Assembly: GCF_000372725.1 (NCBI RefSeq)
Contig: NW_005201392.1
Coordinates: 1,183,184-1,247,183 of the forward strand
Reading direction: 5' to 3'
Length of the DNA: 64,000 nt
DNA from: Emiliania huxleyi CCMP1516
Taxonomy: Eukaryota
Part shown: piece after piece, positions 31,901 to 39,480 of the stretch
Layout of the letters: every line of letters begins with the position of its first letter
Numbering within the stretch: position 1 is the stretch's first letter
The notes under the pieces: model-generated
What the model was told of the DNA's origin: nothing
What the model saw: only the letters and a program-made list of their open reading frames with translations
Databases searched by the model: none
Position numbers and translations under genes: made by a program

Positions 31901-32845
31901 CCGCCCCATCACCCGCGCGTCGGCCCTCGACAGCGAGCAGCTCGAGGCGGCGTCTCGCGCGGCATCTCCTCCTGCCTCGCGAGTCGGGCGAGGTGAGCCG
32001 AGGTGAGCCCAGAGTAGGCCGTGTCGCGCGGCCTCTTCTGCCTCGGGGCGCGCCCCGGCCGGCGAGGCACTGGCGGGGCCCCGAAGCCTCCTCCGCCCCC
32101 CGGCACGGCGCTGCTCTGCCGCCACACCCCCGCGCTGGCGCCGCTGCTCCGCTCCGCGCTCGGAGGGGGGAGCGGCTTCACGTGGCCGCTGTCACGCCGC
32201 GTGCGGGGGTGCGCGTGAACGGCGTCTCTTCACACGCGGGTGCGCGTGTGTGCAGGTGGCTGCGCCGCCGCGTAAGAGAGCCGGGAGACCGCGGCGCGGC
32301 GGGCGGGTCGGCGCGGCCAGACTTGGCCGCAGGTAGGGTGGGCTCGTGGGCGCTGCGGGGCAAGGCTGGCTCCGACCGGCCCGGCAAGCCGCTGGTGCTC
32401 GTCTTTATGGTGGGCGGCGCGAGTCACGCGGAGGTGAGGAGTTGGAGTGGGCCTTGAAATGGCGTCCAACACTTGAAATGGCGGGGGGGGGGAGGGGGGG
32501 GGGGGAGGCTCTTGCCTGCTGTCGTGGAGACGCGAGGGGGAGGGCCCGAGTCCTTGGCCCCTCACGCGCGCGCGCGGAGACGGGTACCCGACCCCAACCC
32601 TCCCTCAGGTGCGGTGCGTGCACGAGGTTGCTGCGGCGACACACCACTGTGACCTGCTCTTCGGCGCGACGGCGCTGCTCACGCCGACGCAGTTTGCGCG
32701 CGAGCTGGTCTCCGCTGCGACCTGCGGCGCGCTGCCCTCTCACCGCTGAGCGGCGCCCCGTCACGCGTCGAGCTGTGAACAGGTCTCGATGGAGCGGATG
32801 CCTCCGCTGAGCGCCGCACCGGTGTCTGACGATGAGGCGGAGTGA
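28993..32845 (+). CDS. Sec1/Munc18 (SM) family protein (multi-exon)
   Basis: VLLLDDTMRRVVSRCCRLSEV..NITLVEHI, AVYLIAPTESSV, LLVDRSSDLFTPLLHDF, LEQDLATG, LVFMVGGASHAEVR and LFGATALLTPTQF are SM-family hallmarks. Confidence 0.88.
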
Positions 32846-34122: not shown

Positions 34123-34324
34123 TGCGAGGGCTGGGCAGGGCAGGGCAGGGCGGCGGCGAGCGGCGAGCGGCGTCGGCGAGATCGGCGACGAAGAGAGGCG
34201 ATGGTGACGTACACGGCGGCAGTGTTCACGGCAGCAGCGCCGGTGGCGACCCCGCGCAGCGGCGGCAAATTGTTCCCACAGCAGGCTCCGTCACGGTGTC
34301 GCCTCTCAGGCCGGCCTCTCAGAG

Positions 34325-35779
34325 ATGTCCGAGCGACAGCTCCGTGCGACTGGCGTCCGCGTGCTGCGCCGGTGCCCTCTCGCTCACGGCGAGCTCGTCG
34401 TCTCCGCCGGCAGCGTGCTCGACTTTGGCGGCGGCACCGGCTGGCCACCATCATCCATCGCCATCGTGAATGCAGCAAACTGCGGTGCCGCACCACCACA
34501 GACGGCGAGTTCCCATCCGCCTTCGACCGTCTGAGCGCTGGCGATCCACTCTCAGGCGGGCTCGGCGGCGGCGGCGTAGATGGAGCCATCACCAGCGCCG
34601 GCGGAGCAGCGCTCGCCGCCGACCGGCGGGCACTTCCCATCCTGCCTGGCACTCGCTTGGCGAGGAGTCCTAGATGCTCGCATCCGCTATCAGGAGCACT
34701 ATTGCTAAAGACGTCGTACTGATCATTCAACCCGCTATTCCTGGCTGCGTATGACGTAGTCAACAGATCGCGCCATTTCGCCACGCGCAGGACCGGATCG
34801 CCACGGGCGGCGCCGTGCTGACCGGGCCAAGGAGCTGCGGCTCGCTGCAGGCCGAGCTGCGAGCATGCGAGTCGTCTCTTCACGGCTGTGCGTCTGTCCG
34901 ATAGAAGCTACGGCTCGCTGTACGCCGGCAATGTCATCCACGCCGTCGGCCCAAACTACCGCGTGCTCGTCGGCTCGGGGCGGTCGGCGGAGGAGGGCGA
35001 CAAGCTGCTGCGCGACGCCTACCGCACCTCGATGGCCGCGGCAGCCGCTGCCAGCGTCGCGCACCTGGGCTTCTCTCTGCTGTCCGCGGGCATCTTCCGC
35101 GGCCCGCGCTCGCTGAGCCACGTGCTTAGGCGCGGCTGCTCATTTCGGCGGGTCTCGGCTCACTTCGGCTCACCTCGGCTCACCTCGGCTCACCTCGGCT
35201 CACCTCCGCTGCGTGCCCAGGGTTGGGATGGAGGCGGTGGCGGAGGGGGCATACCCGGGGCTGGCGGAGGTGCACCTCGTCGCCTTTCTGGAGTCGGAGC
35301 AGCGGGAGCTGCTCGCGCTCCTCGCCGAGCTTAGGGCTGGAGGCGGCGAGGCTGGGGGAGGCGAGGCTGGCGGCAGCGAGGCTGGCGGGAGCGAGGCTGG
35401 GGGAGGCGAGGCTGGCGGCAGCGATGCTGGCGGCAGCGATGCTGGCGGCGATGCTGGCGGCGATGCTGGAGGCGGCGCTGGAGGCGCCTTCTCACCGGAC
35501 GAGGTTCGAAGAGCCGGCCAGCTGCATGTTGTCCGCCACGAGTGTGCCCAGCGCCTCTTCACACTTGCAGGCATGAACAGGTGCTGGCGGACCGAGCCAA
35601 CCACGTCTCCGCGTCGGACGCGGCGGGCAGGCTCCCGCCTCTGCTGGTGGCCACTCTGGAGACAGTCGACACCGCCGCCGCCGCCAACGCCGCCAACGCT
35701 ACCGCCAATGCCGCCGCCACCAAAGACGCCTCCTCTGCCGGCTCCGCTGCCTCGCCCTCCGCCGCTGCCTCCACCTCCG

Positions 35780-35816
<37 letters not shown>

Positions 35817-36838
35817 GCGGCCGCAACGCAGCAACAGGCGCGCACACGCCTCCGCTGCCAGCGCGAGGGCGGCGGTTTTGGCGGCGGCGGAGGCGTCGGA
35901 GGAGGCGGCGGAGGAGGCGGCGCAGGAAGCGGCGAGCGCGGAGGGGGAGGGGGGCGGAGAGGGCGACGGTGCGGCGGAGGCGGAGCAGGCATGGCGTTTG
36001 GCTGACGCGCCGTACGCCTGGGCCGCAGCTCGGCTGCATTGCTTGTGGGCCGCGTCTCTCCACAGGTTGAGCTCTGCGGGTAGGTGTACCTGGGAGCACC
36101 TCGACCACACCGCGGACGTGCAGCTGCACGCGTGGGGCACTCGGCTGGAGGAGGCGTTCGAGCAGTGCGCGCTCGCGATGTTCGCACTGATGACGGAGCT
36201 CGAGACAGTCGGTGTTTGGCTCCCTCCCTCCCCCCCACCCCACCCCCCCACCCCTCTCTCTACGCCGGTCGATGCCGTGCGAGTGCGAGCCGCGTCTCTT
36301 CACAGCTGCTCCTGTGAACAGGCTCGTGCTCGCCGTGACGGAGGTGTGAGTGAGAGCAGCGTCTCTTCACGCCTCGAGGTGTGGGCAGGCGTGGGGCTGC
36401 CGGCAGCACCGCCGGTCGAGGTGTGCGCCCAAGGGCACGACCTGCACTCGCTCCTCTTCCAATTCCTCGACGAGTGCGCGCTCCTCGCTCCGCGGGGCGC
36501 GCGGGGGTGAGCGGCGTCTCTTCACGCCTCGAGCCGTGAACAGGTGGCTCTTCCGCTTCACGGGCGGCGGCGGGTTCGTGCCGCGGCGGCTTCGCGTGGT
36601 GTCGTTGGATCGCGCCGCCTTCCGCGTGCGCTCTCTCGCCGTTGGAGAGTGCTTCGAGCTTGGCCGGCACCCGCAAGGCACAGCGGCCGCCGTCCGGTCG
36701 GTTGGGCGGGGGAGGCGCGTCTCTCTTCACACCTCCGGCCTTGTGGTAGGGACCGAGGTCAAGGCGATTACCTACTCCGCGATGCGCATCACAGAGACGC
36801 CCACGCGAGCGGATCTTCTCGTCATCGTCGACATCTAG
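34325..36838 (+). CDS. Macrodomain (MacroD-type) - archease fusion protein (multi-exon)
   Basis: AIVNAANCGGLGGGGVDGAI, VIHAVGPNY, LLSAGIF (macro); WEHLDHTADVQLHAWGTRLEEAF, GHDLHSLLFQFLDEWLF, GTEVKAITYSAM..VIVDI* (archease); joined in frame by GT-AG intron 35504-35580. Confidence 0.85.
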
Positions 36839-37099: not shown

Positions 37100-39480
37100 T
37101 CCAGGGCCGGGGAGCAAGAAGCGCACCCAGCGGGCCGGATGATGATCGGTATCGGGCTACGGGCAAGAGAGCCCTGACCCCTAAGGGGGGGTGCGCGTTC
37201 GCAGGGAAAGGGCCGTAAAAAGTAAACACGGGTCTCCGAGGGTTGGCTCCGCGCTCCGGGTTTCCCCCTAGCAGCAGAACGCCCCCTCTAGTACGACTCG
37301 TACTAATGAACACGCGACACACCATGGACACGAGACGACACGCATACTCCCACTCGGCGACGGCCTCGCCGCTCAGGATCCCTCCGCCCGGTCTCCTTGC
37401 CCCTTTTCCGGGGAGGTTCCCCTCTCCTCTCGGCCCTTCCTCTTGTTCGCATCCCGATGGTCATGCGACGGGCGCTTCTGGTAAAATTCTTTTTCGCAGT
37501 CCCGCCCGGGGCCCGTGTAAAAGAATAATTTTGTTACTCGAAGAAAACACAGAACCAAACGAGGGATGGGAAAAGAAAAGAAAGAACCCAGACAACCCAA
37601 GGGAGGGATGGGAGGACGGCACGCCGCCACACACAGGGATTTTAAGGAGAGGAGTGTGGTGCTAGCCGTCGCCCACCCTAATCCCTTGGTCGTCTGCCTC
37701 TTCCTATCTCTCTTCGCAGTCCCTCGCCGATTCTCGCTGCAACCTTCATGCCACCTCGCGGTCGTCCCACTCTCGTCGTTCTCCCTCCTGTCGTTTCCTC
37801 CTCTGTCGCGTCGCTCTCGTCTGCCTCGTCCTGCGACGCCGCCGCCGCCTGCCGATCCCTTGCTCTTGCGGCTTCTCCCGCCTTTCGGCGCAACTCTGCC
37901 CTCCTCGCGGCATATTTTGGCCCCTCGAGTTTATCGAGCTCTCCTCGCGCAAGGACGACTCTTCTGACGCCCACTGCGATCATTTGCCGCCAAGTCATAT
38001 CGTTGCTCAGGTCCACTCTCTCTTTGAACACTTGTACGTCCACCGAAGCGATGATGTTGGCGCTGGGGTCCCCTTCGGGTGCATCGTTACAGCTGACGAC
38101 GGGATTTCAGTTGTCAATTTGCGTGCCCGTCCGGTACGTTGCGTCGTTCGCCATCGCTCTCAGGTCTCGCCCCGCTTCATTCAGCATTCCGTTGAACATC
38201 CTGTCCGAGAGAGTCCGTTCCTTTTGCCTCTGCCTCGTAGGAAGGCCTCCGTCTCGGCGTTGAAGTCCCCACCGATAATGTATTCTCCATGGATTTTGTC
38301 TAGCTCGTCACTTAAACTCTCCCACGCGTCTTGCGCGGGGTCCTTTGTTTCTGTCGTCTGAACCACAGCGTGTCCCGACTCGACCGCCGGCGTCCCGGTC
38401 CGGGGGTGTTTCTCTTCTTATCCGTTACCATGTAGAGCAAGGTCGAGGGCGGGCCCTTTCGGGCTCGGGCCGCCCTCTCGCCCGCACCTCTGCGGGGCTT
38501 GCACGTGGTAGCGGCGGCTCAAGATCCCAGCGATCTCGAGTTCTTCACGCTATCCACTGCGCCGCGGCTTCGCCGCGCCCATCCAAGCCCAGGGCTTGGT
38601 TTGCTGATAACCGCATCTCGCTCTGCGCATCTCTGAGGCTACCCGCGCGCCGACTGCTACGCGCGCGGTGAGAGGCGCACCCCATTGGGGACAGGATTGA
38701 GGCCCCTGTACAAGCTCGGCAACGCTGCCGTCGTTGCCCTCCCGAGCCCTCAACACGATGCCGCACATTGCGCAACCCGTTCTGCGCACATGCCGCAGGG
38801 AGGAGTTTTCACTCTCCCGTCCGAGTTTCTCCTTCCTGCAGGGCGAGAGACATCAGCCTCTCTACTTCCAGGAGAACATCTACGCCACACGCTATCCCTG
38901 GTGGGACGGTCCACAACCCACACTCTCGCTGCAGTCGATCCAGCCCTCGCACTCCCCACTGGAGATCTAGCCGAGGCCCCGGCGGACAGGATTGGAGCCC
39001 CTGTGCTGCGTCTGTGGTGATATGTGGGGGACACTTTCTCCTCCCTATTCATGTCAGTCACTCGACTGCGTCGAGGGGGGGGACGTCTGAACCACAGCGT
39101 GTCCCGACTCGACCGCCGGCGTCCCGGTCCGGGGGTGTTTCTCTTCTTATCCGTTACCATGTAGAGCAAGGTCGAGGGCGGGCCCTTTCGGGCTCGGGCC
39201 GCCCTCTCGCCCGCACCTCTGCGGGGCTTGCACGTCTGTGTCGCCCGTCCCTCCGCTCGCCGCGACCGTTATCTTAGCCTGCCCCCTCACTGGCATGTAC
39301 CGGTAGACCCCTATCTGTGTCCATTCCAGTCCGCTTGCCACGTCCTCCATCTCCACCCTCACGACGCGACCTCTCTCCACCTCCTCCATGGCCACTTCTC
39401 GTTCCCGTCTCTCTTTGCTTGCAGGTGGTCCGGGTCCCACACAATCAAAAACGCGCTGCTCTGTGAAGCTGAGAGGTAAA
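37100..39480 (-). mobile_element. Degenerate, rearranged non-LTR retrotransposon (LINE) fragments with APE-endonuclease motifs
   Basis: YIIGGDFNAE (38181-38366) and WTQIGVY..MP (~39290) are EEP-like; many stops and frameshifts; 152-bp duplication 38355-38506 / 39084-39235; related inverted copy at ~63590-64000. Confidence 0.7.

What the first reader, a model, noticed from the sequence alone, without database searches (positions are those of the whole stretch)
34325..36838. Macrodomain-archease fusion: a possible RNA-ligation / ADP-ribose coupling protein
Seen: a complete MacroD-type macrodomain (NAAN, GGGGVDGAI, VIHAVGP, SAGIF) and a complete archease (DHTADV, LEEAF, FLDE, GTEVKAITY) on the same strand. 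A phase-0 GT-AG intron (35504-35580) joins them with no stop through a Gly/Ala-rich linker, and there is no ATG between that acceptor and the DHTADV motif. Known: archease activates RtcB RNA ligase in tRNA splicing and RNA repair and is normally a small standalone protein. MacroD domains hydrolyse ADP-ribose-1''-phosphate, a by-product of the Tpt1-dependent tRNA-splicing route, and remove ADP-ribose from proteins or RNA ends. Inference: this protein may unblock ADP-ribosylated RNA ends, or clear the by-product, while activating RtcB. I know of no described fusion of this kind.
Basis: partly seen in the sequence, partly recalled or inferred. Interest (0 to 1): 0.87.

Follow-up and report, generated by a model that had tools for sequence, protein, structure and literature searches.

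The report
Macrodomain-archease fusion in a coccolithophore
In the alga Emiliania huxleyi, spliced RNA joins the exons of a macrodomain (predicted to handle ADP-ribose) in frame to the linker of archease, the helper of the RNA-sealing enzyme RtcB, so the two likely form one protein; related algae carry other enzymes in the same slot, so this is likely a lineage-specific partner swap and not a conserved RNA-repair machine.

Summary
Ten exons give one 559-aa frame, macrodomain (aa 2-215), Gly/Ala linker, archease (aa 416-559), with no in-frame ATG between aa 180 and 447. No contig crosses two repeats in the linker, so one mRNA is inferred, not seen. The archease stretch is identical to an E. huxleyi record annotated as partial, and its RtcB-activating residues are intact. 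The macrodomain keeps the catalytic Asn and Asp, but has Ser for the adenine-binding Asp and GIFR for GIFG, as does its subfamily. The coupling idea gets little support. No other macro-archease protein appeared (0 of 29 long archeases, 0 of 150 macro homologs, 0 of 80 loci). The nearest archeases, one from Chrysochromulina parva, are fused to a TrhO-like rhodanese and/or FSH1 at the same point, upstream of a conserved LPQRxNRR motif. This macro subfamily fuses with many unrelated domains. Verdict: a likely real, undescribed fusion whose halves probably work independently; RNA-end unblocking remains possible (about 0.2).

The parts
34325..34484 (+). Exon 1: ATG, macrodomain start (GSVLD strand, NAAN)
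   Evidence: Contigs begin at 34277-34325 and splice 34484/34556 in 4 of 4 runs; homologs align from aa 2-4
34556..34659 (+). Exon 2: GGGGVDGAI loop; followed by a GC-AG intron
   Evidence: Joint in 4 of 4 runs; Pfam Macro E 0.007
34791..34831 (+). Exon 3 (41 nt)
   Evidence: Joints on both sides in 4 of 4 runs
34832..34904 (+). GA-AG intron with CTCTTCAC branch-like motif at 34876
   Evidence: Joint 34829/34903 with 2 ambiguous letters in 4 of 4 runs; only the GA..AG placement ends in AG
34905..35129 (+). Exon 4: VIHAVGP, SAGIFRG; followed by a GC-AG intron
   Evidence: Pfam Macro E 2e-8; joints
35221..35503 (+). Exon 5: end of macrodomain (about aa 215), then Gly/Ala/Glu 15-nt and 45-nt repeats
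   Evidence: Joints on both sides; repeats
35504..35580 (+). The joining intron, GT-AG, phase 0, 77 nt
   Evidence: Spliced in 4 of 4 runs from 4 studies
35581..36011 (+). Exon 6: Ala-rich linker, GCC run, conserved RPQRSNRR motif (aa 351) and WRLADAP; archease N-terminal extension
   Evidence: Open frame kept with in-frame indels in two other alleles, P0003 and P0004; motifs shared with related archeases; no CTCTYCAC inside
36084..36211 (+). Exon 7: archease start, DHTADV (H423, D426)
   Evidence: Joint 36011/36084; 100% identical over 42 aa to EMIHUDRAFT_62827
36389..36473 (+). Exon 8: GHDLHSLL, FLDE
   Evidence: Join to exon 7 inferred from exact contig lengths in 2 runs, 345=345 and 213=213; joint 36473/36544
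36544..36677 (+). Exon 9; followed by a GC-AG intron
   Evidence: Joints in 4 of 4 runs
36750..36838 (+). Exon 10: EVKAITY (K535), C-terminal VIVDI (D558, I559), TAG stop
   Evidence: Joint; alignment to human archease

Best explanation
The locus is a 10-exon gene that likely makes one 559-aa protein whose C-terminal archease is predicted to activate RtcB in the usual way, and whose N-terminal macrodomain likely binds or hydrolyses ADP-ribose adducts as a largely independent passenger that likely entered a fusion-prone slot filled in related algae by a TrhO-like rhodanese and FSH1. Shown: the splice junctions, the open frame, the conserved residues and the alternative partners. Inferred: one continuous mRNA across two repeats; that the archease tip (H423, D426, K535, free C-terminal D558-I559) enters the RtcB active site and promotes guanylylation; that a 200-aa low-complexity linker leaves both halves free; that the fusion is tolerated because archease needs a free C-terminus but not a free N-terminus. 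Which partner came first is not resolved.
For: Eight junctions in 4 of 4 runs, ninth by length; single 559-aa frame. Archease residues match those needed in P. horikoshii, His9, Asp12, Lys117, Asp141, Ile142 (PMC3973293, passages; human alignment). 9 of 29 long archeases carry TrhO-like and/or FSH1 domains, 4 of 29 ankyrins, 0 of 29 Macro; one cluster holds a Chrysochromulina parva protein. The window archease groups with 10 such fused rows and one unfused row at 93/93, unstarred (27 rows). The PQR..RR motif is in 18 of 27 long archeases and lies 8-12 aa from the N-terminus in 7 unfused ones, marking the old gene start; 0 of 116 mostly animal archeases have it (pattern written after seeing the sequences). 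14 of 73 macro homologs scanned carry other domains (PARP/WWE, phosphatase, ubiquitin, lipase, Ulp1, RING, C2, EF-hand, UCH, WD40 and others), none RtcB, Tpt1 or archease.
Against: No contig spans the whole transcript. The usual partner, TrhO-like, also acts on tRNA in E. coli (PMC10135228, passages), so partners in this slot may not be random, and that would favour a functional link. The negative searches are partial: 150 of 450 macro hits, 80 of 243 loci, word-limited protein searches, and many records are gene calls that stop at an intron (P0222 appears cut). No named Isochrysidales or Coccolithales protein other than E. huxleyi was recovered, so the fusion could be conserved in a wider clade. 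RtcB itself could not be looked for in this genome.
Confidence: 0.55

Rival explanations
1. Coupled end-healing: the macrodomain removes ADP-ribose from 3'-phosphate RNA ends and the tethered archease activates RtcB to seal them.
For: MACROD1/2 and viral macrodomains remove ADP-ribose from 5'- and 3'-phosphorylated RNA (PMC6582358, passages). E. coli RtcB does not ligate 3'- or 5'-ADPr RNA (PMC9458441, passages), so a decapping step would be needed. The catalytic-loop motif Nx6GGV (N52), D62 and F166 are kept. Unchecked AI notes report another RNA-end enzyme, a 2H phosphoesterase, fused to archease in chlamydiae.
Against: No second macro-archease fusion (0 of 29, 0 of 150, 0 of 80). In 102 archaeal genomes with both genes, 32 on one contig, the closest pair is 10.4 kb apart (one phylum only). 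In the human complex archease sits in the RTCB active-site groove (PMC10944509, section 9 and passages), so activation and RNA binding are probably successive steps (inferred). No enzyme that ADP-ribosylates 3'-phosphate RNA was shown for this alga.
Confidence: 0.18
2. One reading: the macrodomain binds ADP-ribosylated proteins or free ADP-ribose and so localises or gates the archease, tying RtcB activation to NAD/PARP stress signals.
For: The subfamily differs from catalytic MacroD at two positions (Ser for the adenine Asp in 99 of 107 rows with a residue; Arg after GIF in 136 of 150) and occurs with PARP, WWE, RING and ubiquitin domains.
Against: Loss of the adenine-binding Asp would be expected to weaken, not strengthen, binding (PMC10878246, passages, names this contact). 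The fusion was seen in one species only.
Confidence: 0.15
3. Two products: archease is made mainly from a shorter transcript that starts inside exon 6 and uses a non-ATG codon near the PQR motif; the fused message is minor read-through.
For: Contigs break inside exon 6 just upstream of the motif that marks the ancestral archease start. The public model is archease alone, though flagged partial.
Against: The breaks coincide with exact repeats that split short-word assemblies. The macro exons are spliced into exon 6 in all 4 runs and meet no stop before 36836, so a macro-only message would lack a stop codon. There is no in-frame ATG, and the linker frame is kept in three alleles.
Confidence: 0.12

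Closest known systems
Eukaryotic archease (human ZBTB8OS, name recalled; PDB 8BTX, 8ODP), activator of RTCB
   Same: Full-length match at E 1e-45; H-T-A-D, the Lys of VKAITY and the C-terminal Asp-Ile are kept.
   Different: Carries a 415-aa N-terminal addition with a macrodomain; less acidic (net -7 against -16 and -18 in two vertebrate and -10 to -14 in seven related archeases).
MacroD-type macrodomains (E. coli YmdB, O. iheyensis MacroD, AF1521, human MACROD1/2)
   Same: Best profile hits are YmdB (E 2e-35) and MACROD2; the model of a 75%-identical homolog matches these folds; Nx6GGV and the helix-1 Asp are present.
   Different: Ser for the adenine-binding Asp of GDIT, GIFR for G[VIA][YF]G, Thr for the His after GAI; these mark a marine-protist subfamily with dinoflagellate and diplonemid members.
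TrhO-like rhodanese (TSTD2 type) +/- FSH1 - archease fusions of related algae (P0212 Chrysochromulina parva, P0127, P0154)
   Same: Same C-terminal archease clade, same LPQRxNRR and WxxxDAP linker motifs, same fusion point.
   Different: N-terminal partner is a TrhO-like enzyme (NCBIfam TrhO 154-174 bits, cut-off 170) and/or a serine hydrolase, not a macrodomain. I found no paper on these either, but did not search for them by name together with archease.
Archease-rtcB operon of archaea and bacteria (PMC3973293)
   Same: Archease linked genetically to RNA-repair function.
   Different: Separate genes with RtcB as neighbour; no macrodomain. No RtcB is near this locus as far as my scans of the flanking frames show, and none was looked for genome-wide.

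Membership tests
Archease (PF01951) | Profile match over the whole domain | tested here: met
   Pfam E 5e-13 on exon 7; own HMM E 3e-62 on aa 415-558
Archease (PF01951) | His and Asp of HTAD, conserved Lys, C-terminal Asp-Ile with free carboxylate | tested here: met
   H423, D426, K535, D558, I559-stop; required residues from PMC3973293 passages
Archease (PF01951) | Stimulates RtcB guanylylation and multiple-turnover ligation | not testable with these tools
   Needs an in vitro assay
Archease (PF01951) | Co-occurs with an RtcB in the same genome | not testable with these tools
   No whole genome is held; paper search gave nothing relevant
Macrodomain superfamily (PF01661) | Macro profile and fold | tested here: met
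   Pfam E 2e-8 on exon 4; fold tested on homolog P0222, Foldseek E 5e-12, not on the window protein itself
MacroD-type class | Nx(6)GG[V/L/I] catalytic-loop motif (PMC10878246) | tested here: met
   At N52
MacroD-type class | G[V/I/A][Y/F]G motif (PMC10878246) | tested here: not met
   GIFR(G); Arg in 136 of 150 homologs
MacroD-type class | Adenine-binding Asp of the GDIT strand | tested here: not met
   Ser30; Ser in 99 of 107 homologs with a residue there
MacroD-type class | Hydrolysis of ester- or phosphate-linked mono-ADP-ribose | not testable with these tools
   Needs an assay; filed as MacroD-like, not as a member
Conserved macro-archease fusion family | Same architecture in other species | tested here: inconclusive
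   0 of 29, 0 of 150, 0 of 80, but searches were partial and recovered no named close relative of E. huxleyi

The most novel reading that the evidence does not exclude
Haptophyte archease is a carrier with a swappable N-terminal RNA-enzyme slot. In E. huxleyi the slot holds a macrodomain that strips ADP-ribose from broken 3'-phosphate RNA ends and hands them to the RtcB that the same polypeptide has just recharged: the first genetic link between RNA ADP-ribosylation and RtcB repair.
Probability: 0.18. Interest if true: 0.8.

Novelty: new variant of a known kind. Interest (0 to 1): 0.47.

Why it matters
The biological role of RNA ADP-ribosylation is open, and whether RTCB with archease can deal with such ends is named as untested in PMC9458441 (passages). 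A natural single-chain macro-archease offers a direct cis-versus-trans test. Even if the halves are independent, the work corrects a partial public gene model, shows that archease tolerates large N-terminal partners, and exposes a wider TrhO-like/FSH1-archease fusion and a conserved LPQRxNRR motif in algae. It also points to an uncharacterised macrodomain subfamily with Ser at the adenine site.

Tried and rejected
No RNA holder is listed on record; the runs are guesses by the tool. A second laying of reads on the linker gave no result, so bridging of the two repeats stays open. Contig depths differ along the gene (for example 60 on macro and 321 on archease contigs in one run, 24-27 against 24 in another); not used, because contig depth cannot rank parts of a gene. 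The search with linker plus archease start returned 1 protein among 7987 candidates, a midge archease-helicase record that I did not test and suspect is a merged gene model. The metagenome scan gave no full transcript of this species; L013 is its DNA, from 36239 on. No TrhO-like or FSH1 gene lies in the window, so a macro insertion between TrhO and archease at this locus is not seen. The prokaryote scan gave only 7 archaeal loci, so bacteria were not tested for neighbourhood. The Atlas search on linker plus archease start gave only archease clusters under 0.9. Rfam found 0 matches in the window. A first tree of 52 rows did not finish its careful search (same grouping, SH-aLRT 93); the 27-row tree leaves out locus rows, ankyrin fusions and near-duplicates and cannot order the fusions. 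A comparative review on RNA repair that I recalled was not held and may list archease fusions. No complex prediction was run. No supplements were read.

Full report
Observation. The region holds a macrodomain and an archease on the + strand. The 42 archease residues of exon 7 are identical to EMIHUDRAFT_62827 of Emiliania huxleyi CCMP1516, a 141-aa record flagged partial that has no start Met, so the window is from this species or a very close one. Fourteen runs hold 46-52% of the sampled words, as expected for exons only; none is on record as RNA. I laid 4 of the 14, from 4 studies. All four remove eight introns at the same places, among them 35504-35580. The ninth intron, 36212-36388, is not in the printed table, but the lengths of two contigs fit it exactly (345 and 213 letters). 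The ten exons give 1680 nt and one frame of 559 aa with no internal stop.

Is it one message? No contig spans the gene. Macro contigs end at 35375, inside an exact 34-nt duplication (35346/35391); the next contigs carry the end of exon 5 across the joining intron to about 35804; the archease contigs start at about 35783. Both last ends lie in a GCC run. Such repeats split short-word assemblies, both breaks lie inside exons, exon 6 has no branch-like CTCTYCAC (7 of the window's 16 matches lie in this gene's introns; 5.3 expected by chance), there is no in-frame ATG from aa 181 to 446, and a message ending in exon 6 would lack a stop. Two other alleles keep the linker frame, one with indels of whole codons. 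I put one fused protein as the main product at about 0.88.

Archease half. It aligns over its length with human archease (E 1e-45). Residues needed in P. horikoshii (His9, Asp12, Lys117, Asp141, Ile142; PMC3973293, passages) correspond to H423, D426, K535, D558 and I559. In the human structure the conserved tip enters the RTCB active site (PMC10944509, section 9 and passages). The C-terminus is free here, so normal activation of RtcB is the natural prediction. RtcB, Tpt1 and a second archease could not be sought genome-wide; the protein searches returned no second E. huxleyi archease, which is weak evidence.

Macro half. Profile hits are YmdB, MACROD2 and MACROD1; a model of the 75%-identical homolog P0222 (pLDDT 84.5) matches MacroD-type folds. 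Of the signatures given in PMC10878246 (passages), Nx6GGV is met and G[VIA][YF]G is not (GIFR); the adenine-binding Asp is Ser. Both changes are subfamily-wide, so they are not decay after fusion. D62 and F166 are kept. It probably works like a MacroD enzyme, but I do not file it as a member. Named subfamily members come from dinoflagellates and a diplonemid.

Comparison. Among 29 archeases of 248 aa or more, none has a Macro domain; 9 have TrhO-like and/or FSH1 domains and 4 have ankyrins (the two own-species read-throughs were not rescanned). One of these clusters (57 members) includes a Chrysochromulina parva protein; the rest are unnamed, and calling them haptophyte rests on the tree. Of 80 metagenome loci kept from 243, 0 show a macrodomain and 4 show TrhO-like sequence upstream, 3 in the same open frame. 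The window archease falls with 10 TrhO/FSH1-fused rows and one unfused row (93/93, unstarred). All share a PQR..RR motif 45-93 aa before HTAD and most a WxxxDAP motif. In 7 unfused algal-type archeases the motif is 8-12 aa from the start, so fusions happen upstream of the old N-terminus. From the other side, 0 of 150 macro homologs (of 450) have archease, and 14 of 73 scanned carry unrelated domains. In 151 genomes of one archaeal phylum, 102 have both genes and none within 10 kb. Gene calls cut at introns weaken all these negatives.

Mechanism. Two domains that each fuse readily, joined by 200 low-complexity residues, with no second example, point to a lineage-specific swap whose halves act mostly alone (0.55). 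It has no comparative support (0.18). The by-product version is weaker, since that by-product belongs to the Tpt1 route (recalled). A reader role (0.15) and separate products (0.12) remain. That the common partner is related to a tRNA hydroxylase (PMC10135228, passages) keeps open that the slot is selected for RNA-related enzymes.

Novelty. Five full-text searches found no macro-archease fusion: archease + macrodomain gave 2 papers (one read in passages, no fusion; the other seen as a listing only); archease + macro domain + fusion 0; archease + RtcB + fused + eukaryotes 10, listings only; archease + macro + RNA repair + Tpt1 0; RNA damage + biological conflicts + archease 2, listings only. 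A 2026 review of the ligase complex has no occurrence of 'fusion' or 'ADP-ribos'. PMC7050489 was read in passages for MacroD background. The library lacks many journals. Both domains are known, so this is a new variant of a known kind. Interest 0.47.

Noticed in passing
window 34832-34904: A GA-AG intron spliced in 4 of 4 runs, in a gene that also has three GC-AG introns. One paper search for GA-AG with Emiliania gave 2 papers; the one read mentions GA-AG introns for Symbiodinium only.
   Followed up: partly
P0122, P0127-P0132, P0154, P0212; L004, L005, L007: A widespread TrhO-like rhodanese (+/- FSH1)-archease fusion, often one long open frame on the contig, joining a likely tRNA hydroxylase to the tRNA-ligase activator; it may deserve its own study.
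   Followed up: partly
window about 35818-35841 (aa 351-358): Conserved basic motif (L/R)PQRxNRR in the N-terminal extension of algal-type archeases, absent from 116 mostly animal ones; possibly a nuclear signal or RtcB contact (inference).
   Followed up: partly
window 36322-36343: Possible 22-nt alternative mini-exon inside intron 7, with a GAACAG acceptor, a GT donor and two branch-like motifs (36296, 36363); with a donor 4 nt upstream it would add 6 residues in frame. Two runs fit the direct join instead.
   Followed up: partly
P0002 against window 36084-36838: The public model EMIHUDRAFT_62827 lacks the macro exons and linker and differs from the RNA-supported splicing at two joins.
   Followed up: yes
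P0143, P0145, P0147, P0148: A separate ankyrin-archease fusion in an unnamed eukaryote lineage.
   Followed up: no
window upstream of 34277: One contig (run X3, record 12) has 45 further letters beyond 34277 that the table does not place; a 5' exon or a skipped repeat is possible.
   Followed up: no
window 32230-32457 (+) and 38184-38417 (-): Neighbours: a weak Sec1-family C-terminus upstream (E 0.002) and a weak retrotransposon-type endonuclease fragment downstream (E 0.035), with high-copy repeats on both flanks; neither suggests RNA repair.
   Followed up: partly
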